64,000 nucleotides of DNA from an uncultured Gammaproteobacteria bacterium (GCA_905479295.1 CAJQLY010000017.1:12380-76379); one strand, 5' to 3'. Shown: positions 1 through 22,391, counted from the first letter of the stretch. Program-made: numbers and translations. Notes: generated by a model from the letters alone, not told the origin.

Positions 1-190
1 ATAGCTTGTGGATAACTTGTGTACAGGATGTTGCTCTAAAAAAACTTTTTAAGTATCCGCAACTTAAGAATTAGTGCCCAATATAAGGGCAATAAAAATG
101 GCTGAATTAATTTATTTTTCTGGTGTTTAATCGATTAAATTTATTTAATGCGAGACCTTTTTCTCACCGATAATTATAAAACAGGATCTT

Positions 191-1990
191 ATGATCAGTA
201 GAACACAGGCTCGCGTTAGCGAACCGCATAAAAAACGAACAGATTGGGCTAATTTACGTCGATTATTCCCCTATTTATGGGCTTATCGAGGACGTATTCT
301 GCTCGCATTGGCCTGTTTAATGCTGGCTAAGGTGGCAACGGTTGCTGTGCCGTTAGTATTGAAGCAGATTGTGGATCAGTTTGATGTTGAAGATGTCATG
401 CTCACGTTGCCTTTGGCCTTATTGCTGGCATACGGTGCTCTGCGCTTATCGACGGCCCTATTTAACGAATTGCGTGATGTCTTGTTTGCCCGAGCCCGCT
501 TTCATGCGGTGCGCACGATGTCGGCAGACGTTTTGGCCCATTTGCATAGGTTGTCCATGCGGTTTCATCTGGATCGTCGCACTGGGTCGATCTCGAGAGA
601 TTTAGAACGGGGCACTCAAAGTCTCAGTTCTTTATCCAACTACTTCATCTTTATTGTGATTCCAACGGTATTTGAGATCACTTTAGTCATGGCTATTCTG
701 TTTAGCTCCTATGCCGCCCACTTTGCTGTGATCACGCTAGCTACCGTGATGTTCTACATATTATTTACGGCATTGGTGACGAACTGGCGTATGCACTATC
801 GGCATACAGCGAATCAACTGGATTCAGAAGCTCATTCTCAGGCGGTTGATAGCCTGATGAATTATGAGACAGTGAAATACTTCAATAATGAGGAGTATGA
901 GGTCAACCGTTATGCCAATACCCTGTTTCGTTGGGAGCAGGCCTTAGTTAAAAGTACCGTAACCATGTCTTTGCTGAATTTTGGTCAAGCATCGATTATT
1001 GCTATTGGTGTGACACTTATTATGGTGTTTGCAGCGAATGGTGTGGTTAGTGGTGAGATGACGATTGGTGACCTTGTCTTGGTGAATGCTTTGATGTTGC
1101 AACTATTTGTACCGATGAATATGTTGGGCATCGTGTATCGGCAGATTACCTATGCCCTGGCTGATATGGATTTGTTGACGAAATTATTAAATGAAAAGCC
1201 AGAGGTGAAGGATCAGGAGGGTGCGCAGGCGCTTCAGCTAAAGCAGGGTGCAGTGGAATTTGAACGTGTAGCTTTTTCCTATAACCCAGATCGAGTGATC
1301 TTACGTGATATTTCTATGCGTATAGCGCCAGGACAGAAGATTGCTGTTGTTGGCCCATCAGGTGCCGGTAAGTCGACGATTGCACGTTTATTGTTTCGTT
1401 TTTATGAGCCGACAAGTGGGCGAGTGCTGGTGGATGGTCAAGATATCGCCGAATCGACCCAAGACAGTCTGCGCCAACAGATCGGTATGGTGCCGCAGGA
1501 GACGGTACTGTTTAACAACAGTATTCATTTTAATATTGAATATGCCAGGCCAGGAGCAACTGAAGCAGAGATTCAAGCTGCGATACAGATTGCACAACTT
1601 GATCAACTGATTGCTCAGTTACCAGAGGGAATGAATACCATCGTTGGTGAGCGAGGACTGAAGCTGTCTGGCGGTGAACTACAGCGGGTGGCTATCGCAC
1701 GTGCGATCCTGAAAAAACCAAAAATCCTTATCTTTGATGAGGCTACATCCAGTTTAGATTCTGATACAGAGGTTGCACTGATGCAGTCTATACGTGAGGC
1801 CGCTAGTGGTGTCACATCACTGATTATTGCCCATCGCCTATCGACTATTGTTGATGCGGATTGTATCTATGTTTTAGAAGCTGGGCGTGTGGTGGAGCAA
1901 GGCAGTCATGCGCAACTATTGGCTATGGCTGGGTTATACTCGCGGTTATGGAATTTGCAGCAATCGAAACAAAGGCATAAGGAAGGCTAA
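191..1990 (+). CDS. ABC exporter, fused permease-ATPase (ATM1/HMT1-like)
   Basis: 599-aa ORF. N-terminal multi-helix membrane domain and C-terminal NBD with Walker A GPSGAGKST, signature LSGGELQR and Walker B ILIFDEATS. Confidence 0.9.
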   Translation: MISRTQARVSEPHKKRTDWANLRRLFPYLWAYRGRILLALACLMLAKVATVAVPLVLKQIVDQFDVEDVMLTLPLALLLAYGALRLSTALFNELRDVLFARARFHAVRTMSADVLAHLHRLSMRFHLDRRTGSISRDLERGTQSLSSLSNYFIFIVIPTVFEITLVMAILFSSYAAHFAVITLATVMFYILFTALVTNWRMHYRHTANQLDSEAHSQAVDSLMNYETVKYFNNEEYEVNRYANTLFRWEQALVKSTVTMSLLNFGQASIIAIGVTLIMVFAANGVVSGEMTIGDLVLVNALMLQLFVPMNMLGIVYRQITYALADMDLLTKLLNEKPEVKDQEGAQALQLKQGAVEFERVAFSYNPDRVILRDISMRIAPGQKIAVVGPSGAGKSTIARLLFRFYEPTSGRVLVDGQDIAESTQDSLRQQIGMVPQETVLFNNSIHFNIEYARPGATEAEIQAAIQIAQLDQLIAQLPEGMNTIVGERGLKLSGGELQRVAIARAILKKPKILIFDEATSSLDSDTEVALMQSIREAASGVTSLIIAHRLSTIVDADCIYVLEAGRVVEQGSHAQLLAMAGLYSRLWNLQQSKQRHKEG

Positions 1991-2355
1991 TGGCAACTGA
2001 AGATACTCAAAGAATTAAGATAGAAGAAGAACTGACGGATATGGATGGTAGCGGCTGTGCGAGCAGTGAGCCGTTTGCCTTGCGTGTGCTTGGCGATAGT
2101 ATGGAGCCAGAATTTAAAGATGGCTGCGTTATTATTATTGATCCTGATGGGGTTGCTGAGAATGGAAATTATGTGATTGCAGAGATCGATGGTGATTATA
2201 TTTTCCGCCAATATATGGAAGAGGCAAGTCAGGGATTTTTACAGGCAATTAATCCTGGGTATCCGCGGCAAGATATAGAGAGTAAGAGTGTTATTCGAGG
2301 TGTGGTTACGCAGCGTGCAGGTGCACGGCGTAAGTATCATAAGCGCTATGAATAA
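1990..2355 (+). CDS. stand-alone S24 (LexA/UmuD-like) peptidase domain protein without a DNA-binding domain
   Basis: 121-aa ORF with the LGDSMEP nucleophile motif. The C-terminal part aligns by eye to the LexA C-domain. Its ATG overlaps the TAA of the ABC gene (TAATG). Confidence 0.75.
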   Translation: MATEDTQRIKIEEELTDMDGSGCASSEPFALRVLGDSMEPEFKDGCVIIIDPDGVAENGNYVIAEIDGDYIFRQYMEEASQGFLQAINPGYPRQDIESKSVIRGVVTQRAGARRKYHKRYE

Positions 2356-2369
2356 AATGTTGGGCCGAC

Positions 2370-2537
2370 TTAACTGCGATAGGAGTTGAAGTAACGTACA
2401 AAGAGAAAAAAAACTAAGCCATAAAGCGCAATTAAAGAAACCATCTGGCCTATGCTCAGGCTGGGGTAATTCATAGTTACAACAGCAGCTATTATTATAG
2501 CGACTAATGCGAATCGATTTCTTTGCCAAGGCTTCAT
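2370..2537 (-). CDS. small two-helix membrane protein (55 aa), below the ORF-track size cutoff
   Basis: My own translation: MKPWQRNRFALVAIIIAAVVTMNYPSLSIGQMVSLIALYGLVFFLFVRYFNSYRS. AAGGA lies 8 nt upstream of the ATG. Two hydrophobic segments. Confidence 0.35.
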   Translation of the reverse strand: MKPWQRNRFALVAIIIAAVVTMNYPSLSIGQMVSLIALYGLVFFLFVRYFNSYRS

Positions 2538-2549
2538 GGGTAACGTCCT

Positions 2550-2633
2550 TTATAGATCAAAAATTCCAGCCAGATAAAATCCCAGCCAAACTAAGCCAAC
2601 AATAGTGAAGGCAGCGGGTAATAACCAGCGCAT
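2550..2633 (-). CDS. 27-aa single-helix peptide, below the ORF-track size cutoff
   Basis: My own translation: MRWLLPAAFTIVGLVWLGFYLAGIFDL. AAAGGA lies 6 nt upstream. Its TAA is 12 nt before the ATG of the 55-aa ORF and overlaps that ORF's AAGGA. Confidence 0.25.
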   Translation of the reverse strand: MRWLLPAAFTIVGLVWLGFYLAGIFDL

Positions 2634-2743
2634 ACGCAATCCTTTGTGGTGCGATAATTAATAGGTGAAATCAAGAGCAGCAGAGACCGTCTTCAGCGTC
2701 TTATTACACGATAAACTTTAACCTAAGCGTGAGGCTGCTGTCG

Positions 2744-2802
2744 AGTGAATAAGGCAGTGATTAGTGATTGAACTAGGTTTAATCACTCCATGAGGAGTGA
2801 TC
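2744..2802. repeat. heptamer array AGTGAAT / AGTGATT / AGTGATT / (inverted) AATCACT / AGTGAT able to form mutually exclusive hairpins
   Basis: Copies read at 2744, 2756, 2763, 2781 (inverted) and 2796. AATCACT(CC) can pair either with an upstream AGTGATT or with the downstream (GG)AGTGAT. Confidence 0.4.
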
Positions 2803-2853
2803 TTCGATGCCGTATAAGAGTAGTGCTGACTCGATCTGATAGTGACTCGTTTT

Positions 2854-3480
2854 TCAGGGTCTTTCAACGGGTACTAATATTTCATTTCGTCTCAAAAACC
2901 ACGGCATGAATGGAGGGTTATATCTAGCCCATATGGGCTCTCCGATCACACTGAGGTTTTGTTTCTCAATCCAAGCATTCAACTTGTCCAAGTTGCGGCG
3001 GTAGCCTTGTTCACTCCAGAAGCCAGAGTACTTGATGGCCGCAATGTATCGTGCGGGGACTTGATGTAAGGTCACACTCGGATCTATAGGTGTAGGGAGT
3101 GTCTCCATCGAATAGGACGAAGGCATCATAAAGCTTACGACCCACCGACCATTCTTACGCTGTTGGCCGACAGGTGAAGTCATGGCAATTTTTTCGCTGA
3201 TAGGGCTTTCAGTAATGGATGCAGGCATTTTAACTTTTTGCTGGGACTTGTTGTTGCCAGAAATGTATTTGAATAGCGGGCTAAAGGCTTTTTTCCCTGC
3301 ACTCTCAAGGTCTCCATCTACTATAGTTTTGGCAACAACATGAGGCTCATATTGGCGTACTTCAAAGCTTTTCTCATTAAGTAAGACTGTGTATTCGGCT
3401 TCCTCTGTTGCCATTGTATTCTCTACTCCAAGAACCATAAAAATAACAGCCCAATAAGCTCGTTTCATTTTAGCCATCAA
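2854..3480 (-). CDS. SOUL/HEBP-family heme-binding protein with an N-terminal signal-like segment
   Basis: 208 aa. Hydrophobic N-terminus AYWAVIFMVLGVENTMA. The core EAEYTVLL..FEVRQYEPHVVA and the overall length fit the SOUL family as I recall it. Confidence 0.75.
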   Translation of the reverse strand: MMAKMKRAYWAVIFMVLGVENTMATEEAEYTVLLNEKSFEVRQYEPHVVAKTIVDGDLESAGKKAFSPLFKYISGNNKSQQKVKMPASITESPISEKIAMTSPVGQQRKNGRWVVSFMMPSSYSMETLPTPIDPSVTLHQVPARYIAAIKYSGFWSEQGYRRNLDKLNAWIEKQNLSVIGEPIWARYNPPFMPWFLRRNEILVPVERP

Positions 3481-3496
3481 ATCCCACCTTTATATC

Positions 3497-3518
3497 TTCA
3501 ATAAATATATTTATTGAA
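3497..3518. promoter_or_regulatory. perfect 22-bp AT-rich palindrome TTCAATAAATATATTTATTGAA upstream of the SOUL gene (candidate operator)
   Basis: Read directly. The two 11-nt halves are exact reverse complements. It lies 17-38 nt upstream of the minus-strand ATG at 3480. Confidence 0.4.
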
Positions 3519-3807
3519 ACCATTAATCATCTAATATTCTTAGTGTCATTACCTTGTCTTTGATAATTTGGATGCGTAATGTTCACACTATATATACACC
3601 AGGTCAGTTACCCATTGCTCATTATAATCGACGAGCTTTGGCTCTAATAGGCTCGGATTTATGCTTGCCTGTTGGAACCGTTTTAGCTTAGGCCTGCATG
3701 GCGTCAGGACATGACCCTTTAGTCAATTCTTTACCAAATAAGTATTGATTCATTCGCAAGCTACTGTAGGACATATTAGACCGAAATTAATATATGGGAT
3801 ATTAGAG

Positions 3808-4620
3808 TTATATGCGTTGCTTGTCCTTGTAAGGTAGTAGTATGCGGAAGCACGTGCCTTCGCCCAGAGTGCTATTGACTTCAATTTTTCCAGAATGATT
3901 GTTCACTACATTGTCGACCATATGTAACCCTAACCCAGTACCTTTACCTTTTTCCTTTGTTGTGTAGAAAGGCTCGAAGATGAAGGGTAAATCTTTTTCT
4001 GCTATGCCATGACCATTGTCGCTAATTTCAATAATGGCTATCTTCTGATCGTCCTCTTGTTTCATACGAGTACTTAAAGTGATTAGGCCATCCTGTCTAA
4101 TTGAGTGGACAGCATTCATTAACAAGCTTAGGAATGCTTGGCCTAATCGTCCTTCGCTGGAATAGATTAAATCTAATTCATTTAAGTCCCATTGTATGGT
4201 GGTTTGAAATTTGATTTCATTAAAGGCTAGTTTGACGGTTTTTTGAAGTAGCTTGTTGACATCGACTAGCTGCCAATCGATATCTTTGGCATGGGTGAAA
4301 CTCATGAGATCGGTAACGATGTTGCGAATCCGATTAGCCCCGAGTAAGCAGTCCTCTAATAGACTAGCTGTTTCTTTTTGTATGTAGTCGAAATCAACCT
4401 CTTTTTTCATGCGTTCTAAGCGTTGAATAAGGATAATCCTCTCCTGCTCACTAGGCCTGTGTGGAGAAGTAATTTCTTCTTGCAAGCTAAGGATTTCAAT
4501 ACAGTGTTTACGGTAATCGGCAAGCATTTCAAGGTTGCTAGTGAGGAAGCCAACTGGATTATTTATCTCATGGTTGGAGAGGTTGGCTAGGATGTATAAT
4601 TTGAGACAAAAAAAAGCCAC
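3808..4620 (-). CDS. histidine kinase transmitter core only (HisKA + HATPase_c), no sensor or TM region; possibly a 5'-truncated remnant
   Basis: H-box SNHEINNPVGF sits at residue ~17. G1 (DNGHGI) and G2 (GTGLGL) boxes are present. The only start upstream of the phospho-His is GTG 4618-4620, inside the terminator stem of the upstream gene. No response regulator is adjacent. Confidence 0.6.
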   Translation of the reverse strand: MAFFCLKLYILANLSNHEINNPVGFLTSNLEMLADYRKHCIEILSLQEEITSPHRPSEQERIILIQRLERMKKEVDFDYIQKETASLLEDCLLGANRIRNIVTDLMSFTHAKDIDWQLVDVNKLLQKTVKLAFNEIKFQTTIQWDLNELDLIYSSEGRLGQAFLSLLMNAVHSIRQDGLITLSTRMKQEDDQKIAIIEISDNGHGIAEKDLPFIFEPFYTTKEKGKGTGLGLHMVDNVVNNHSGKIEVNSTLGEGTCFRILLPYKDKQRI

Positions 4621-4634
4621 GTTTTTAACGCGGC
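4608..4634 (-). terminator. intrinsic terminator after the 67-aa ORF
   Basis: The minus-strand RNA reads GCCGCG-UUAAAAA-CGUGGC followed by U8. The stem is 6 bp including one G-U pair. Confidence 0.6.
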
Positions 4635-4666
4635 CTTTTAAATAACTAATTTACTGCTCAGGGTAA

Positions 4667-4870
4667 CTATTCGTGAGAACCCTTTTCCGCGTGGGCATCA
4701 GCAATCACTTCTGTCGCGAGTTTTGAATACTCTTCGCGATAGCCATCAAGCTCTGAACCGTCTTCTGGGGTGAAGTACTCTTCTGCTGAAACGCCGTTCG
4801 CACGGTCTAACTCGCTGAATTTCTTCTGCATTTCCAGCATTCTTTTGATCTTATCCTGCTTAGAGCTCAT
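4667..4870 (-). CDS. hypothetical acidic 67-aa protein
   Basis: ORF with GGAGGA immediately upstream of the ATG and a terminator directly downstream. I recognise no family. Confidence 0.5.
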   Translation of the reverse strand: MSSKQDKIKRMLEMQKKFSELDRANGVSAEEYFTPEDGSELDGYREEYSKLATEVIADAHAEKGSHE

Positions 4871-5041
4871 ATATCCTCCGAACGAAAAGCTTTGGTGTTT
4901 AATTTGCGTATCTTGGGCCGAAGTCTAGGAGATCGGCGCGGACACTTCTGTATCTCTATTGAGAGGCTGCGGGCAGCAATAGTCTTGATTCCTTCCACTG
5001 TTGCTGCGTGATGGTTAGCCTGCTGGGTGTCCTACTCGGGC

Positions 5042-5383
5042 CTAGTAACCGCCTTTACGACGACTTTCTGGTAATCCACCGATACGACCACCCTGCTTGC
5101 TAGGGTCGCCCGGGAATAGGTCATATAAGGTTTTTGCATTAACACTTTTGTCATCCCAGGCTTTGCTCATGGCCTTCACCATATTGCGGGTGTTGGGCTG
5201 ATTGCCTGCATTGTTGATGAATTCATCACGTAAGAAGTTAATTACATCCCAGTGACGATCAGTTAATTCTACGGTTTCTTCCTTGGCAATAATTAGTGCC
5301 AATTCTTTCGACCACTCTTCAATATTGACTAAAAAGCCACTGGCTGTGGTTTCTATGCTTTTTCCATCTATTTCAAATGCCAT
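5042..5383 (-). CDS. DsrC/TusE-family paralogue lacking both conserved C-terminal cysteines
   Basis: 113 aa, aligning along its whole length with the canonical DsrC at 11320-11652 (HW[DE]VINFLR[DE].., LY[DE]LFP). The C-terminal arm reads SKQGGRIGGLPESRRKGGY instead of AKQACKYAGLPKPTGCV. AGGAGA RBS. Confidence 0.85.
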   Translation of the reverse strand: MAFEIDGKSIETTASGFLVNIEEWSKELALIIAKEETVELTDRHWDVINFLRDEFINNAGNQPNTRNMVKAMSKAWDDKSVNAKTLYDLFPGDPSKQGGRIGGLPESRRKGGY

Positions 5384-5517
5384 AACAGTATCTCCTGAAC
5401 TCCAAATGTATGAAAAAAATCGCTTGCTGGAAGCTCGCTGAGCTTAACGCACTCTGCTAATTTCACTCAAGTTCTGTGATCAATATATCCTGAGTAAAGC
5501 GACTCTTATAAAGGAAG

Positions 5518-6207
5518 CTATTTTTCCTGTGCCTCACTGATCGCGTCAATACCCTTATGAGGTAGAAACAAACCACAACCGAGTAATCGCCCGAGACCGA
5601 TACCGCGTTGCTGTAATAATACGGATTGTGCAACATCAATGCCGTCTATCATGAGGCTGCGCGTCACAGCAGGCTGGCCATTGAGTATTAATTGGGTAAT
5701 CTTTCCACACATCATCTTTTTTGGCCGTATGCTAAGCAGCTGTAGCTCTTTTAGGGCTTGTTGTAGAAAGGCATCCTCATCCTCTACCGGGCCTAAATCA
5801 ACATAGCGGCAAAATAAAGTGGTTAAGCGTGATAGTGGTCTAACGCTTGATTTCCCAAACTCTAAAGTGACACCATCGACTTCGATATGATCACCCTGTA
5901 AGGCTTCAGTTGTTGCCAGTCTTTGATTGCTGATACGAAGCGTAAAAAGAGTGCGTCGTGAAGGATAGATGAGATCATCCGGATTTTGTGGGCGTATCCA
6001 ACCATTGCCTGATTCAGCACCATGAATAGAAAAAATACCACTGTATGGGTCTGTTACTAACCACGGTAGTTTGTCGCACATAGCCTGTGATAGGGCGTCG
6101 ATATGGTCTAGCTTGAGTTGCGCACACTTAATCCTGAAGTTGACATCGATAATGTCTTCGGGGACTTTATATTCCGCTTCTTCGTTCGTGTCCTCATTCC
6201 AATACAT
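5518..6207 (-). CDS. Cas6/Cmx6-like RAMP-superfamily protein (orphan; no CRISPR context)
   Basis: 229 aa. The C-terminal glycine-rich loop RGIGLGRLLGCGLFLPHKG matches the RAMP/Cas6 G-loop pattern. The N-terminus MYWNED..VPEDIIDVNFRI and the length match my recollection of the type I-MYXAN Cas6/Cmx6 family. Not verified by HMM. Confidence 0.55.
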   Translation of the reverse strand: MYWNEDTNEEAEYKVPEDIIDVNFRIKCAQLKLDHIDALSQAMCDKLPWLVTDPYSGIFSIHGAESGNGWIRPQNPDDLIYPSRRTLFTLRISNQRLATTEALQGDHIEVDGVTLEFGKSSVRPLSRLTTLFCRYVDLGPVEDEDAFLQQALKELQLLSIRPKKMMCGKITQLILNGQPAVTRSLMIDGIDVAQSVLLQQRGIGLGRLLGCGLFLPHKGIDAISEAQEK

Positions 6208-17445: not shown

Positions 17446-18648
17446 ATGGATACCCTCAGATACGGTGCAATTGATGCGCGTTCTCCTAAATATTGGGCCT
17501 TATTAATTGGCCTTGGTTTGGTTGCTATGATTGGCGTGCTATCGGCACACCACATGGAAGTTGAAGGTCATGTCATTAGTGGCATGAACAACCAAATCGT
17601 ATGGGGCATGCCTCATGTATTCGCAGTATTTCTTATTGTCGCCGCTTCTGGCGCACTTAACGTGGCCTCTATTGCCTCAGTCTTTGGTAAAACTGAATAC
17701 AAGCCTTTGGGCCGGTTATCAGCACTACTAGCGATTGCATTATTGGCTGGCGGTCTAGCGGTACTGGTACTCGATTTAGGTCGTCCTGATCGCCTCATCG
17801 TTGCCATGACCACATATAACTTTAAGTCGATTTTTGCTTGGAATATTCTGCTCTACACCGGTTTCTTTGCCATAGTTGGTTTCTACATGTGGTGCATGAT
17901 GGATCACGCCATGCAGAAATTCAGTAAACAAGCAGGCCTATTCGCATTTATCTGGCGCTTGATCCTAACCACCGGTACTGGTTCAATTTTTGGTTTCTTA
18001 GTCGCACGTAGTGCTTATGATACGGCGATGCTAGCACCGATGTTCATCATGATGTCCTTTGCTCTTGGTCTAGCTTTCTACATTATTGTTATGTTGGCTA
18101 GTTATCAGTGGAGCGAACGCCCGGTTGGTGACTTGATTGTTAACCGTATGCGTAACCTGTTGGGTATCTTTGTAGCTGCTGTGATGTACTTTGTAGCGGT
18201 CTATCACGTAACCAACCTGTATGCCACAGAACACCATGCAGTAGAGAAATTCCTCCTATTAGATGGCGGTATCTTCACACAGCTATTCTGGTACGTGCAG
18301 ATCTTGCTTGGTGGCATAGTGCCATTAGCCTTGATCTATGCACCGCAAACACGCAACTGTAGACGTGCATTATTAGCCGCCTGTGCACTCGTATTGATTG
18401 GTGGCATGGCACACATCTATATCATTATTGTTGGTGGCCAAGCGTTTCCAATAGAGATGTTCCCAGGAATGGAAGTCAGCAGTAGCTTCTTTGATGGCGA
18501 GGTGAGTGCTTACACACCAAGTCTATGGGAAATCCTGTTAGGCTTTGGTGGCATCGCCATCACTCTATTATTGGTAACGGTAGGTGTAGCAATTTTAGAC
18601 TTCTTGCCTGAGAGCCTAGCGGACAATATCGTCAGCCATAAGAAATAA
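17446..18648 (+). CDS. dsrP: DsrP, NrfD/PsrC-like integral membrane subunit
   Basis: 400-aa polytopic membrane ORF starting 2 nt after dsrO. Last gene before the terminator. Confidence 0.9.
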   Translation: MDTLRYGAIDARSPKYWALLIGLGLVAMIGVLSAHHMEVEGHVISGMNNQIVWGMPHVFAVFLIVAASGALNVASIASVFGKTEYKPLGRLSALLAIALLAGGLAVLVLDLGRPDRLIVAMTTYNFKSIFAWNILLYTGFFAIVGFYMWCMMDHAMQKFSKQAGLFAFIWRLILTTGTGSIFGFLVARSAYDTAMLAPMFIMMSFALGLAFYIIVMLASYQWSERPVGDLIVNRMRNLLGIFVAAVMYFVAVYHVTNLYATEHHAVEKFLLLDGGIFTQLFWYVQILLGGIVPLALIYAPQTRNCRRALLAACALVLIGGMAHIYIIIVGGQAFPIEMFPGMEVSSSFFDGEVSAYTPSLWEILLGFGGIAITLLLVTVGVAILDFLPESLADNIVSHKK

Positions 18649-18683
18649 GACTATCTGCATTACTTAAGACTTAAATCTTAGTC

Positions 18684-18724
18684 AAAAAAAGCGGGCCCTG
18701 ATTAATTCAGGGCCCGCTTTTTTT
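18684..18724 (+). terminator. intrinsic (bidirectional-looking) terminator of the dsrA-P operon
   Basis: A7, then GCGGGCCCTGA-TTAAT-TCAGGGCCCGC, then T7. The 11-bp stem is perfect. Confidence 0.85.
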
Positions 18725-18748
18725 ATACCTACGATTTAATGAATGATT

Positions 18749-18794
18749 TTATAGGCGGGTAATAATTTGCTGGGTGAACTCAATGGTGGATGCA
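18749..18794 (-). pseudogene. orphan duplicate of the 3' end of the icd-like gene
   Basis: Minus-strand translation gives ..SASTIEFTQQIITRL*, compared with ..SASTTEFTQQIIARL* at the real gene end (19659). No upstream coding continuation. Confidence 0.7.
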
Positions 18795-18795
18795 G

Positions 18796-18822
18796 AATCA
18801 ATAGGGTCAGACTCGATTGATT
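18796..18822. repeat. 27-bp palindromic element AATCAATAGGGTCAGACTCGATTGATT (copy 1)
   Basis: 7-bp terminal inverted repeats AATCAAT/ATTGATT. Lies 6 nt downstream of the DJ-1-like stop. A second copy at 19536-19562 differs at 1 nt. Confidence 0.8.
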
Positions 18823-18828
18823 CTCTAG

Positions 18829-19509
18829 TTATGAAAAAAGCTCAAGAATAGCTTTTGCAACAGCTTCAGATGATGCTGGATTTTGACCCGTTATAAGTTT
18901 CCCATCTGTTATTGCATACGATTGCCAATCATCAACTTTGGAATATTCACCGCCTAATCTAATAAGCTCATCTTCAACTAAAAGTGGGACGACTTGAGTT
19001 AATTGCACTGCATCTTCTTCGGAGTTTGTAAAACCAGCTACTTTTTTACCCTTAACCAAGGGCTCCCCATTAGGAGTCTTCGCTTTGAGTAGAACTGCTG
19101 GCGCATGACAGACTGATGCAACGGGCTTATTTGCTGCAACCATAGCCTCAATAATAGCAATTGAATCTTGGTCATTTGCTAAATCCCAAAGCAGACCATG
19201 CCCTCCTGGATACATAACAGCATCATAATCCTCTGGCTTTATATCTGAGAGCTTAGAAGTATTAGCAAGAACTGCCTGAGCATTGGAATCGCTTTTGAAT
19301 CGTTCAGTGGCAGCAGTCTGAAAGTCTGGCTCATCACTTTTTGGATCAATTGGTGGTTGTCCACCCTTTGGCGATGCCAATGTGATATTGGCCCCTGCAT
19401 CCAGCAAGGTAAAGTAAGGAGCCGCAAACTCCTCCAGCCAAAAACCAGTCTTAAGACCTGTTTCTCCTAATTTATTATGCGATGTGAGTATTATTAAAAC
19501 ATTCATCAT
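18829..19509 (-). CDS. DJ-1/PfpI (class I glutamine amidotransferase-like) family protein
   Basis: Nucleophile-elbow Cys in PVASVCHAPAVL. Start trimmed to MMNVLIILTSH so that it does not run into the upstream repeat. Confidence 0.8.
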   Translation of the reverse strand: MMNVLIILTSHNKLGETGLKTGFWLEEFAAPYFTLLDAGANITLASPKGGQPPIDPKSDEPDFQTAATERFKSDSNAQAVLANTSKLSDIKPEDYDAVMYPGGHGLLWDLANDQDSIAIIEAMVAANKPVASVCHAPAVLLKAKTPNGEPLVKGKKVAGFTNSEEDAVQLTQVVPLLVEDELIRLGGEYSKVDDWQSYAITDGKLITGQNPASSEAVAKAILELFS

Positions 19510-19535
19510 GTGATCTCTATATGTAGTTGGTGGCA

Positions 19536-19562
19536 AATCAATAGGGTCAGACTCTATTGATT
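19536..19562. repeat. 27-bp palindromic element AATCAATAGGGTCAGACTCTATTGATT (copy 2)
   Basis: Direct-orientation copy on the other side of the DJ-1-like gene. Confidence 0.8.
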
Positions 19563-19590
19563 ATGGTCTCCAATACTGAAGTCTTGATCC

Positions 19591-19704
19591 AAAAAAAAGC
19601 GGGCCCTAATTAATTCAGAGTCCGCTCTTTATTATGCCTAGGATTTAACGAATGCTTTTTATAGGCGGGCAATAATTTGCTGAGTGAACTCAGTAGTGGA
19701 TGCA
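19591..19704. repeat. copy B of the duplication (degenerate terminator + functional 3' end of the icd-like gene)
   Basis: The hairpin is decayed here: GCGGGCCCT..AGAGTCCGC has 2 stem mismatches and the T-tract is interrupted. Confidence 0.8.
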
Positions 19705-20675
19705 CTGCCACCTAGGTCGCCAGTCAAATGTTTACCTGAAGCCAGCTGGGCATCTAGCGCTTCACGCAGACGTGTAGCTTTCTCATGTTCTTCAACGTGA
19801 TCCAACATCATTGCTGATGCGAGCATCAATGCGGTTGGGTTGGCTAATTGCTTGCCGGTGATATCAGGGGCTGATCCGTGCACAGCTTCGAATATAGCCG
19901 CATCTTCACCGATGTTACCGGATGGCGCCAAGCCTAGGCCGCCAACTAAGCCAGCAATCTCGTCGGATAGAATATCGCCAAACATATTGGTCGTGATCAA
20001 GACATCGAACTGGTTGGGGTTGAGTACTAACTGCATCGCACAGTTGTCGACAATGCGTTCATCAATTTTTAGCTTATCAACGTATTTTTTACCGATGTTA
20101 GTTGCAGTCTCTAAGAATAGGCCCGTGAGTTTTTTTAAAATATTCGCTTTATGCACGATGGTGACACGCTTGCGGTTGTTTCGAATGGCCCAATTAAAGG
20201 CGAACTCGGAAAAGCGGGTGCAGCCATGGCGGGTGATAATGCCAGAGGCCTCGGCCACAGCATGTGGGTCATCGGCAATCGGAATATAGTGTTCGACACC
20301 GACATAGAGACCTTCTAGATTTTCACGAATCAGGACTAAATCAACGTTCTCAAAGCGTCCGCCGACTAAAAAGCTACGTGCTGGGCGGACATTAGCGAAA
20401 AGTTTAAATTCCTCACGTAAACGGACATTAATAGAGCGGAAACCATCCCCTACAGGCGTCGTCAGAGGCCCTTTCAGCGCAAGTTTTGTCTTGCGAATAC
20501 TAGTGATAGTATTTTCTGGGAGAGGGTCGCCATGGGCATCTACTGCCGCCATGCCGGCGAGTTGTGTATCCCAATCAAACTTTGCGCCTAATACATCTAA
20601 AACTTGTAATGTGGCATCTACGATTTCGGGACCGATGCCATCACCGGGAATTAGGGTTGCAGGTATTCTTTCCAC
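19659..20675 (-). CDS. isocitrate/isopropylmalate dehydrogenase family protein (probably NAD-dependent isocitrate dehydrogenase)
   Basis: 338 aa. GDGIGPEI, LKGPLTTPVG..FRS.NV.LR and NMFGDILSD motifs of beta-decarboxylating dehydrogenases. Confidence 0.8.
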   Translation of the reverse strand: MERIPATLIPGDGIGPEIVDATLQVLDVLGAKFDWDTQLAGMAAVDAHGDPLPENTITSIRKTKLALKGPLTTPVGDGFRSINVRLREEFKLFANVRPARSFLVGGRFENVDLVLIRENLEGLYVGVEHYIPIADDPHAVAEASGIITRHGCTRFSEFAFNWAIRNNRKRVTIVHKANILKKLTGLFLETATNIGKKYVDKLKIDERIVDNCAMQLVLNPNQFDVLITTNMFGDILSDEIAGLVGGLGLAPSGNIGEDAAIFEAVHGSAPDITGKQLANPTALMLASAMMLDHVEEHEKATRLREALDAQLASGKHLTGDLGGSASTTEFTQQIIARL

Positions 20676-20807
20676 TGAAAATGAACCTCATTGTGTGTAC
20701 TTTTTACTTTCTGTGCCTCAGATGAGGCGTGGCTACATTATCTCGCCCCTAGCTAAGGGTGCAACCATTTATGCAAAATCTTTAAGCCCAATATGGCATA
20801 GAGATAT

Positions 20808-20833
20808 AAAAAAGGCACCTATTTATAGGTGCC
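20808..20833 (-). terminator. intrinsic terminator downstream of rimO
   Basis: The minus-strand RNA reads GGCACCUA-UAAA-UAGGUGCC followed by U6. Confidence 0.75.
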
Positions 20834-20963
20834 TAAATAGGAAAAACTAGCTTAGCTATCAGCTAGTTAGAACGTATGGAGTGTTGAAAGTCACATGCTG
20901 GCCCAGTAACGAGCAATGGCATAATGCATTAATATTTTTACACTGTGATGACGCTGACTTCAC

Positions 20964-22295
20964 CTAATCGGCTACACTTGCGATTAAGTCGTACTCAGTG
21001 GCCTCTTCAATATTGACCTTGATGATGTCACCAACGGCCAAATTTTCACCACCATAAACGCGAACTACGCCATCAATCTCAGGTGCATCGGCGTAACTCC
21101 TAGCGGTGGCGACTTCCTCATCAATGGTATCGATCAACACATCTAAGCTATGGCCAACTTTTTGCTCCAACTTATCTTCACTAATCTCTGCTTGTGTTTG
21201 CATAAATCTGTGCCAGCGTTCTTCTTTAACTTCATCCGGCACTTGATCTTCAATGGCATTCGCAGTTGCCCCCTGTACCGGTGAATACTGAAAACAGCCA
21301 ACCCGCTCGAGCTGAGCCTCACGTAGAAAATCGAGTAACTGCTGGAAATCATCATCAGTCTCGCCGGGGAAGCCAACAATAAAAGTACTGCGAATGGCAA
21401 TATCTGGGCAGATTTCACGCCAGCGATTAATTTGCGCCATGGTGTTGCTGCTTGATGCTGGACGTTTCATCGCTTTCAGGATGCGTGGACTAGCATGCTG
21501 AAATGGTACATCGATATACGGCAGAATCTTACCTTCAGCCATCAACGGGATAATTTTTTCGACATGTGGGTAAGGGTAAACGTAATGTAGACGTACCCAA
21601 ATGCCTAATTCTGATAATGCAGAGCAGAGATCGAGTAGAGTGTTTTGGTAAACCCGGCCACGCCACATCTGTGCCTCATTACGGATATCGAGGCCATAGG
21701 CGCTGGTGTCTTGCGAAATAATCAGTAATTCTTTCACCCCAGCAGCGGCTAGTGCCTCTGCTTCTTGCATAATGCTACCGAGCTCTCGACTCGCTAGTTT
21801 GCCGCGCATCGAAGGGATAATACAAAAACTGCATTTGTGATTGCAGCCTTCAGAAATCTTGATGTAAGCGTAGTGTTTGGGCGTTAATTTGATGCCCTGT
21901 GGTGGAATTAAACTCGTAAAGGGGTCGTTTTTGATGGGTACTGCAGAGCGAATACTCCGCATAACACTATCGACATCCTGTGGCCTAGAGATACTCAAGA
22001 CTTCAGCTGGGATGGCGTCCACATCTTCAGGGTTGACGCCCATGCAGCCGGTAACAATTACCTTGCCATTTTCTTCTAAGGCTTCAGCGATGGTTTCTAA
22101 TGATTCTTGTTTTGCTGAATCAATAAAGCCACAGGTGTTTACGACTACGGCATCTGCACCGTCGTAGTCAGGTGCAATCTCATAACCTTCTGAGCGCAGT
22201 TGCGTAATAATGCGTTCTGAGTCGACTAGTGCCTTCGGGCAGCCGAGACTAATAAGACCAATTTTTGGCATAGAACTGTTGTTAGTTGAAGTCAC
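20964..22295 (-). CDS. rimO: ribosomal protein S12 methylthiotransferase
   Basis: 443 aa. N-terminal MTTase cysteines (LGCPKA, NTCGF, TGCMG), radical-SAM CNHKCSFC, and a C-terminal TRAM-like region. Confidence 0.9.
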
Positions 22296-22391
22296 TGTGT
22301 TCGCTATCGCAAGGTTGGAGTGCTAAAGTGAGAACCTTCACATTGCACTATAAAAGCATCATTTTCTTACAGTTCTTAGCCAGTTAAGCCT

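What the first reader, a model, noticed from the sequence alone, without database searches (positions are those of the whole stretch)
18684..19704. Integration-scar-like duplication: terminator plus the 3' end of the icd-like gene is present twice, bracketing a DJ-1-like gene
Seen:
- A ~111-bp segment (A-tract, hairpin, spacer, and the last ~15 codons of the icd-like gene) occurs at 18684-18794 and again at 19591-19704, at roughly 85% identity by eye.
- Copy A has a perfect hairpin and an orphan gene tail (..SASTIEFTQQIITRL*).
- Copy B has a decayed hairpin but is the real end of the gene (..SASTTEFTQQIIARL*).
- Homology stops exactly at ..TGGATGCA on the gene side.

Established: in E. coli the e14 element and phage 21 integrate into icd and carry a surrogate icd 3' end, producing exactly this kind of duplicated tail.

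Inference: about 0.9 kb (18796 to ~19704) carrying the DJ-1-like gene entered by site-specific recombination at the 3' end of this gene. No integrase remains, so it would be a decayed islet or a cassette mobilised in trans.
Basis: partly seen in the sequence, partly recalled or inferred. Interest (0 to 1): 0.6.

Follow-up and report, generated by a model that had tools for sequence, protein, structure and literature searches.

The report
REP-bounded foreign gene with duplicated target

Summary
The duplication is real. X_A (18649-18795) and X_B (19563-19704) align at 84% over 133 nt (BLAST E 9e-35). It is longer than reported: it runs from the first base after the dsrP stop codon to 46 nt inside icd.

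Between the copies lie REP1, a 226-aa DJ-1/Hsp31-like gene, and REP2.

- **Empty sites exist.** Three other lineages of the genus (G001, G002/L065, L066) have dsrP-terminator-icd directly adjacent and, where whole genomes could be searched (G001, G002), no DJ-1 homologue. This is an insertion.
- **The gene is foreign.** Its closest outside relatives are 85%, 80% and 78% identical (the last Verrucomicrobiota), against 70% or less within the family.
- **The 27-bp element is a REP, not an att site.** It belongs to a REPIN/RAYT system. In G001 the same sequence flanks a Y1 (IS200-like) RAYT gene and forms 123-bp inverted doublets. No integrase is present.
- **The islet is old and fixed per lineage.** It occurs in two lineages that differ by 6-10% in the flanking genes. 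It is absent from G001, which is 97-100% identical to one of them outside a diverged block of about 1 kb on each side of the site. That pattern indicates exchange by homologous recombination.

How the original insertion duplicated 145 bp is unresolved. A REP-linked or illegitimate recombination event is likelier than site-specific integration.

The parts
17446..18648 (+). dsrP (NrfD-type membrane subunit), the left neighbour; convergent with icd
   Evidence: Pfam NrfD 2e-49
18649..18795 (.). X_A, the displaced copy of the target. It comprises the dsrP-icd spacer, terminator A and the orphan icd tail (stop plus 15 codons, 18749-18795).
   Evidence: Alignment with X_B and with the empty sites of G001, L065 and L066. 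BLAST E 9e-35. X_A copies of both lineages share a 7-bp tandem duplication (TTAAGAC) that is absent from X_B and from the empty sites.
18684..18724 (.). Terminator A: a perfect bidirectional hairpin with A7/T7 tracts
   Evidence: -34.4 / -32.3 kcal/mol, z about -9. The stem is kept perfect in lineage 2 by a compensatory C:G to T:A change.
18796..18822 (+). REP1 (AATCAATAGGGTCAGACTCGATTGATT). It is identical to the master REP of G001, and its 'inner' side faces DJ-1.
18829..19509 (-). DJ-1/PfpI-superfamily gene of Hsp31/glyoxalase III type, 226 aa. It is horizontally acquired and lies on the same strand as icd, downstream of it.
   Evidence: Pfam DJ-1_PfpI 1.8e-17. PDB 4p5p 1.6e-55 and glyoxalase III 4lru 5e-31. 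Nearest outside relatives 85/80/78%. dN/dS 0.22 between lineages.
19536..19562 (+). REP2, in the same orientation as REP1 with 1 mismatch. It lies 23 nt upstream of the first ATG (19510-19512); the 226-aa product starts one codon later.
19563..19704 (.). X_B, the working copy: spacer, weakened terminator B (19592-19632) and the real icd 3' end (19659-19704)
19659..20675 (-). icd-like gene: 338-aa isocitrate dehydrogenase of the Iso_dh family
   Evidence: Pfam Iso_dh 5e-100. NCBIfam isocitrate dehydrogenase PRK08997 8.5e-137, though its 455.6 bits fall below that model's 510-bit cut-off.

Best explanation
This is an old single-gene islet.

**Shown**
- A foreign DJ-1/Hsp31-type gene, trimmed to 23 nt upstream and 6 nt downstream of its reading frame, is bounded exactly by two same-orientation REP hairpins. 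These belong to the genus's own REPIN/RAYT repeat family.
- It lies between the convergent genes dsrP and icd.
- About 145 nt of target is present on both sides: the whole spacer with its bidirectional terminator plus the last 46 nt of icd. As a result dsrP keeps a perfect terminator (copy A), icd keeps an intact end (copy B), and the DJ-1 gene lies downstream of icd on the same strand.
- The ancestral state is the empty site.
- The islet is fixed in two lineages and absent from a third that is nearly identical to one of them outside a diverged block around the site.

**Inferred**
- The islet has since been gained, lost or exchanged by ordinary homologous recombination through the flanks, or through the two X copies.
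- The founding event was not integrase-mediated. It was a recombinational join at the REP hairpins. Candidates are an illegitimate or one-sided (HFIR-like) join, or a replication template switch, possibly started by RAYT nicking. This event copied the target segment.
- DJ-1 is expressed by read-through from icd across terminator B, which is clearly weakened in the window's lineage only.
For: **Empty site.** It is seen in G001 (C2:112025-113109) and G002, in metagenome contigs L065 and L066, and among the 22 contigs read that carry the G001 icd allele: every place shown that extends past icd is empty. The other icd alleles behave the opposite way. The L1 allele (3 contigs) and the L2 allele (24 contigs read) carry the DJ-1 gene wherever the contig extends past icd.

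**Foreign gene.** There is no homologue in G001 or G002, and identity is 70% or less elsewhere in the family. Outside relatives are 85%, 80% and 78% identical, the last Verrucomicrobiota, and they sit in unrelated contexts without REPs. Similarity to the 85% relative runs up to both REPs.

**REP identity.**
- The same 27-mer occurs at about 17 places in G001, mostly as 123-bp inverted doublets.
- It flanks a single Y1_Tnp gene: Pfam 8e-15; NCBIfam REP-associated tyrosine transposase 76.7 bits against a cut-off of 80.
- The doublet spacer matches the RAYT 3' end.

**Age and origin of the two copies.**
- A copies pair with A and B copies with B across the two lineages (86-91%). A versus B is 83-88%. 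G001 is about equidistant at 83-87%, and the remoter congeners are at 72-78%.
- So both copies arose within this clade, at about the time of the L1/(L2,G001) split.

**Exchange by recombination.**
- Synonymous divergence (dS) between L2 and G001 is 0.02-0.03 in dsrJ and dsrO. It is 0.17 and 0.14 in dsrP and icd, which touch the site.
- Identity between L2 and G001 falls from 98-100% to 86-95% within about 1 kb of the site.
- DJ-1 dS between L1 and L2 is 0.12, against 0.24-0.53 in five flanking genes.

**No integrase.** Only one Xer-like tyrosine recombinase was found in G000.
Against: - The founding mechanism is not shown. No intermediate (a clean insertion, or X-REP-X) and no second location of the cassette was found.
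- The REP-DJ-1-REP unit is seen at one locus only, so its mobility as a unit is unproven.
- No RAYT and no other REP were found on L1-type contigs of G000. That genome is only 77% complete.
- Known Y1 (IS200/IS605) transposition makes no target duplication.
- Terminator B is clearly weakened only in lineage 1 (-17.5 against -26.2 kcal/mol in lineage 2). No promoter for DJ-1 was found, so expression is inferred.
- The low dS of DJ-1 could reflect codon constraint.
Confidence: 0.6

Rival explanations
1. Campbell-type integration of a circle that carried its own copy of X, either by RecA-dependent homologous recombination or by a recombinase acting in trans. The circle would be X-REP-DJ-1-REP. 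One crossover inside X gives exactly X_A-REP-DJ-1-REP-X_B, and recombination between X_A and X_B would excise it again. It is at least a likely route for later spread between lineages.
For: - The topology fits exactly.
- 145 nt of homology is enough for RecA.
- The cassette is polymorphic among close lineages, and DJ-1 shows lower synonymous divergence than its flanks.
- Many assemblies break at X.
Against: - It does not explain how the first circle came to hold X bounded by REPs on both sides.
- G001's X is not a recent A/B recombinant of lineage 2: it has about 12 private differences in about 127 nt, against 1-3% in the surrounding genes.
Confidence: 0.2
2. Homology-facilitated illegitimate recombination. 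DNA from a relative carried a clean insertion (dsrP-REP-DJ-1-REP-X-icd). It was anchored by homology in icd, and its other end, at the outer edge of REP1, joined illegitimately 46 nt inside the recipient's icd. This pushed the resident spacer and tail downstream as orphan X_A.
For: - It explains why X_B starts exactly after the dsrP stop codon, since REPs commonly sit just after stop codons.
- It explains why X_A ends at an arbitrary point in icd.
- Only 2 nt (AG) of microhomology lie at the junction.
- There is a diverged haplotype block around the site.
- The same type of scar was reported elsewhere in this scan (e1-2476188; unchecked).
Against: - The required donor state, a clean insertion without duplication, was not seen in any of more than 50 contigs.
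- Natural competence of these uncultured bacteria is unknown.
Confidence: 0.15
3. e14/phage-21-type site-specific integration by a tyrosine integrase that has since been lost, with X_B as the element's surrogate icd end.
For: - A duplicated icd 3' end brackets foreign DNA, as with icd/icdC around e14. That case is described in PMC13626634, citing Hill et al. 1989.
Against: - The insert is 767 bp with room for one gene only.
- Its ends are REPs of a HUH-transposase system.
- There is no integrase in the insert or near it, and only Xer-type enzymes in the recovered genome.
- The duplicated segment extends through the whole spacer to the neighbour's stop codon.
- Both copies belong to the host clade.
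Confidence: 0.04
4. The REPs are later arrivals. The gene was inserted, with the duplication, by an unrelated accident, and two REP singlets later landed at both junctions.
For: - REPs spread within genomes and prefer intergenic hairpin-rich DNA. This rests on established knowledge (Bertels & Rainey 2011, PMC3116915).
Against: - Two independent insertions would have to fall within a few nt of both foreign/native boundaries and in the same orientation.
- REPs of this family are otherwise mostly inverted doublets.
- Both REPs are shared by both lineages.
Confidence: 0.05

Closest known systems
Cryptic prophage e14 (and phage 21) in the 3' end of E. coli icd, with the displaced icdC fragment
   Same: Foreign DNA lies between a working icd 3' end and a displaced, diverged copy of that end. 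The target gene stays intact.
   Different: e14 is 15 kb, encodes its own integrase and excises on SOS induction (PMC13626634). Here the insert is 0.77 kb with one cargo gene and no recombinase. Its ends are REP hairpins, and the duplication also covers the whole intergenic spacer and the terminator.
REP/REPIN sequences and their RAYT (Y1 HUH) transposases (Nunvar 2010, PMC2817692; Bertels & Rainey 2011, PMC3116915; Ton-Hoang 2012)
   Same: - The 27-bp bounding elements are members of such a family.
- They are extragenic palindromes and form inverted doublets with fixed spacing.
- There is a single RAYT gene flanked by them in G001.
   Different: - Here there are two singlets in direct orientation around a cargo gene.
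- The family has a low copy number (about 17 in G001).
- A 145-bp flanking duplication is present.
- In Pseudomonas, horizontally acquired DNA typically lies in REP deserts (PMC3390384).
IS200/IS605-family elements and their non-autonomous derivatives (PATEs)
   Same: Two similar subterminal hairpins on the same strand bound the unit. This is the geometry a Y1 transposase needs.
   Different: - There is no transposase inside.
- Only one copy is known.
- Y1 transposition leaves no target duplication.
Homology-facilitated illegitimate recombination scars (de Vries & Wackernagel 2002; from my own knowledge)
   Same: - The islet has no integrase.
- A displaced gene end is present.
- The junction has minimal microhomology.
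- The surrounding haplotype block is diverged.
   Different: The illegitimate end coincides with a REP boundary, and the donor state has not been observed.

Membership tests
e14-type integrase-mediated integrative element | Element-encoded (or nearby) tyrosine/serine recombinase | tested here: not met
   The 767-bp insert holds only the DJ-1 ORF. A PF00589 search of G000 finds one Xer-like gene on another contig.
e14-type integrase-mediated integrative element | Duplicated 3' end of the target gene bracketing the element | tested here: met
e14-type integrase-mediated integrative element | Excision restoring a single att site, with circular form | not testable with these tools
REP/REPIN-RAYT system | Short imperfect palindrome repeated in extragenic DNA | tested here: met
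   There are about 17 copies in G001, 1 in G002, and 2 flanking DJ-1. The hairpin folds at -8 to -8.5 kcal/mol.
REP/REPIN-RAYT system | Inverted doublets (REPINs) at fixed spacing | tested here: met
   G001 and G000 contig C26 carry 123-bp units with 95-96 nt start-to-start spacing. The two REPs in the window are not a doublet.
REP/REPIN-RAYT system | Cognate RAYT gene flanked by the REPs | tested here: met
   Met in G001: L045:5189-5908, Y1_Tnp 8e-15, REP_Tyr_transpos 76.7 bits against a cut-off of 80. Not found in G000 or G002.
REP/REPIN-RAYT system | Conserved GTAG/CGTC tetranucleotide at the foot of the hairpin | tested here: inconclusive
   No GTAG or CGTC is seen 5' of the stem in the aligned copies. 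The flanks are variable.
IS200/IS605-type cargo element (PATE-like) | Same-strand hairpins at both ends | tested here: met
   Both REPs are in '+' orientation.
IS200/IS605-type cargo element (PATE-like) | Copies of the unit at several loci, and insertion without target duplication | tested here: not met
   More than 50 contigs show a single locus, and a 145-nt duplication is present.
Integron gene cassette | attC with RYYYAAC/GTTRRRY cores, and IntI | tested here: not met
   The REP sequence lacks these cores, and there is no IntI-type recombinase.
DJ-1/PfpI superfamily, Hsp31/glyoxalase III branch | Domain match and a nucleophile-elbow Cys-His | tested here: met
   Pfam PF01965 at 64 bits against a cut-off of 26.6. 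PDB 4p5p, 4lru and 1qvw. The motif SVCHAP is present in the translation. Enzymatic activity was not tested.

The most novel reading that the evidence does not exclude
The same-orientation REP pair is a RAYT-usable cargo unit. It was planted by a structure-directed reaction at the foot of a long stem-loop.

- In the empty sites of G001 and L066, the two breakpoints of the duplicated segment are mutually complementary. About 13 bp pair, with two compensatory changes between the two genomes. The pairing lies in the top 0.3-0.7% of same-geometry window pairs.
- A cut or template switch across that stem would therefore duplicate the whole 145-nt loop, terminator included.
- Similar REP/RAYT-associated scars noted elsewhere in this scan (e1-1551812, e1-008346, e1-814533) are unchecked leads. 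Together with them, this would mean that REP/RAYT systems can capture single genes and insert them at gene ends while duplicating the local hairpin region.
Probability: 0.12. Interest if true: 0.75.

Novelty: new variant of a known kind. Interest (0 to 1): 0.4.

Why it matters
Integrase-less islets bracketed by a duplicated gene end are a recurring but poorly explained way in which small genomes gain genes without breaking their neighbours.

This case is unusually clean:
- one cargo gene;
- exact empty sites in sister lineages;
- both junctions resolved to the nucleotide;
- both junctions formed by REP hairpins of an identified RAYT system.

If the REPs did take part, this links the 'domesticated' REP/RAYT repeats to gene capture. 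If they did not, it is a well-dated example of a recombinational insertion scar, and of a strain-variable stress gene (a methylglyoxal/glycation defence enzyme) in an abundant uncultured marine sulfur oxidiser.

Tried and rejected
- **Other copies of X or of the cassette.** None in the genome or in relatives, apart from the strain-variant contig C7.
- **Long flanking duplications around other REP-flanked genes in G001.** None.
- **REPs near the closest DJ-1 relatives.** None.
- **Site-specific recombinase.** Only Xer-type.
- **attC or dif identity of the 27-mer.** Rejected on sequence and on its RAYT linkage.
- **Ancestral cassette lost in the outgroups.** Rejected: the A/B copies are 83-88% alike, while the outgroup empty sites are 72-78%.
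- **Chimeric (A-left/B-right) pattern of G001's X as proof of deletion.** The pattern is present but confounded. Selection on terminator A and on the coding tail in B predicts the same pattern.
- **Own promoter for DJ-1.** None convincing.
- **Third lineage among the DJ-1 protein variants P0026/P0028.** They are lineage-2 type with the same junctions.

Full report
**Observation**

The region reads dsrP (17446-18648, +) | X_A 18649-18795 | REP1 18796-18822 | DJ-1-like gene 18829-19509 (-) | REP2 19536-19562 | X_B 19563-19704 | icd-like gene (19659-20675, -).

- BLAST of X_A against the rest of the window hits only X_B: 133 nt, 84%, E 8.8e-35.
- The 27-mer has 0 expected chance matches.
- Hairpin A is perfect (-34.4 kcal/mol). 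Hairpin B is weakened in this lineage (-17.8).
- Alignment with the empty sites of relatives shows the duplication begins at the first base after the dsrP stop codon and ends 46 nt inside icd (GATGCAG|). It is therefore about 145 nt, not 111.

**It is an insertion**

- The window is G000:C17. G000 is a 1.15-Mb MAG, 77% complete.
- The two other species of the genus have no DJ-1 homologue. They have dsrP and icd adjacent, with a single X.
- Metagenome contigs L065 (G002-type) and L066 (a further lineage) are also empty.
- X_A and X_B are 83-88% alike. Both are 83-87% identical to G001's X, but only 72-78% to L065 and L066.
- The duplication therefore arose inside the clade (L1, L2, G001), and the outgroup empty sites are ancestral.

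**The cargo is foreign**

- Within the family the best match is 70%.
- Outside, proteins of 85%, 80% and 78% identity exist, the last from Verrucomicrobiota. They lie in unrelated contexts without REPs.
- DNA similarity to the 85% relative begins about 25 nt upstream of the ATG and ends just after the stop codon, that is, at the two REPs.
- The protein is of the Hsp31/glyoxalase III type: PDB 4p5p 1.6e-55, 4lru 5e-31.
- It is under purifying selection, with dN/dS 0.22 between lineages.

**The 27-bp element is a REP**

- In G001 the same sequence occurs at about 17 places in four clusters.
- It occurs mostly as 123-bp inverted doublets (REPINs).
- It flanks a single 239-aa Y1 transposase gene: Pfam Y1_Tnp 8e-15; NCBIfam REP-associated tyrosine transposase 76.7 bits against a cut-off of 80.
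- The REPIN spacer matches the 3' end of that gene.
- All copies have a polarity: outer flank, then AATCAATAGGGTCAGACTC[G/C]ATTGAT[T/C], then inner side. By that polarity REP1 and REP2 are direct repeats. REP1 points into DJ-1 and REP2 points away from it.
- G000 has no RAYT.
- On contigs of the window's own lineage, G000 has no REP other than these two. The REPIN on contig C26 and the second copy of the locus on C7 belong to a co-binned G001-like lineage; C26 is 99.6% identical to G001.
- Only one Xer-type tyrosine recombinase was found in G000.

**Population history**

- Two lineages carry the islet: L1 (the window, L063, L149-151) and L2 (C7, L055-062, L152-159, L244-248).
- Both have the same layout. 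In L2 the orphan tail is 14 nt shorter (GAACTC|TAGAA|REP).
- In the flanking genes L2 is 96-99% identical to the empty G001. L1 is 90-94% identical to both.
- L2-G001 identity is 98-100% away from the site and falls to 86-95% within about 1 kb on each side.
- Synonymous divergence (dS) between L2 and G001 is 0.02-0.03 in dsrJ and dsrO, against 0.17 in dsrP and 0.14 in icd.
- Allele linkage is complete. L1 and L2 icd alleles always occur with DJ-1. Every shown place with the G001 allele that extends past icd is empty (22 contigs read).
- DJ-1 dS between L1 and L2 is 0.12, lower than in the five flanking genes (0.24-0.53).
- Together these data indicate an old presence/absence polymorphism carried on diverged haplotype blocks and moved by homologous recombination. 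There is no sign of current transposition.

**Mechanism**

No integrase-type feature was found.

- The e14 analogy (PMC13626634) holds for the outcome, a displaced gene end, and not for the machinery.
- The REPs sit exactly at both foreign/native boundaries, so they were most likely involved in the founding event.
- Known Y1 chemistry does not make a 145-nt duplication. In addition, the cassette is known from only one locus.

Three routes remain possible:
- a one-step duplicative join at the REP hairpins, by illegitimate recombination or a template switch, possibly RAYT-nicked;
- one-sided (HFIR-type) recombination with a relative that carried a clean insertion;
- Campbell integration of an X-bearing circle.

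One lead points to a structure-directed event. In the empty sites of G001 and L066, the sequence right after the dsrP stop pairs with icd codons just beyond the other breakpoint. About 13 bp pair, at -12.3 and -11.6 kcal/mol, which is the top 0.3% and 0.7% of 3000 same-geometry pairs. There are two compensatory changes between the two genomes. The windows for this test were chosen after seeing the fold, so it is suggestive only.

**Function of the layout**

- Terminator A is kept perfect in both lineages through a compensatory change. It now serves dsrP from one side and icd-DJ-1 from the other.
- Terminator B is clearly weakened only in L1.
- No promoter was found for DJ-1. Read-through from icd is the likely, untested, source of expression.

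**Verdict**

- The integrase/e14 mechanism is not supported.
- The REP/RAYT link is new for this kind of scar, but its causal role is unproven.
- Earlier notes of this scan describe similar integrase-less 'displaced gene end' islets and REP-associated hairpin duplications. I used them as leads only.

Noticed in passing
G000 contigs C7 (whole, 2738 bp), C26, C57, C38: The MAG is a mixture. C7 is a second copy of this locus from another lineage: 92% identical, with a 1-nt frameshift in DJ-1 that other assemblies of that lineage lack. C26, C57 and C38 are 98-99.6% identical to G001, whereas typical contigs are about 88-91%.
   Followed up: partly
L049 (G001) 2475-2490 with 2621-2630; L066 equivalent; weaker in window 19563-19580 with 19708-19722: In the empty sites, the first nucleotides after the dsrP stop are complementary to icd codons just beyond the duplication breakpoint. 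About 13 bp pair, with two compensatory changes between G001 and L066. The pairing lies in the top 0.3-0.7% of random same-geometry pairs. Neither arm pair would be contained in either normal transcript.
   Followed up: partly
L045 (G001 C3:139000-149000) 75-6000: An RHS-repeat toxin gene is followed by small lipoprotein-like ORFs, with REPINs in each gap and the RAYT gene at the end of the array.
   Followed up: no
L047 3844-4690 and L048 3772-5186 (G001): Accessory ORFs of 161 aa and 367 aa are flanked by REPs or REPINs in G001. The orthologous positions in the window's lineage (C13, C5) hold different, shorter DNA without REPs.
   Followed up: partly
L246 1714-1735 (window orientation): One lineage-2 contig lacks 60 bp of X_A, including the whole terminator A hairpin. 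The deletion lies between two TTTA microhomologies. It is either a real deletion of the palindrome or an assembly artefact.
   Followed up: no
window 18664-18683: The X_A copies of both lineages share a 7-bp tandem duplication (TTAAGAC/TTAAATC) that is absent from X_B and from all empty sites. This marks a single origin of the displaced copy.
   Followed up: yes
window 18649-22391: The block DJ-1, icd, rimO lies on the opposite strand and splits the dsr cluster between dsrP and dsrN. The icd-rimO part of this arrangement is shared by all lineages of the genus examined, but not by the 81-84% icd relatives.
   Followed up: no
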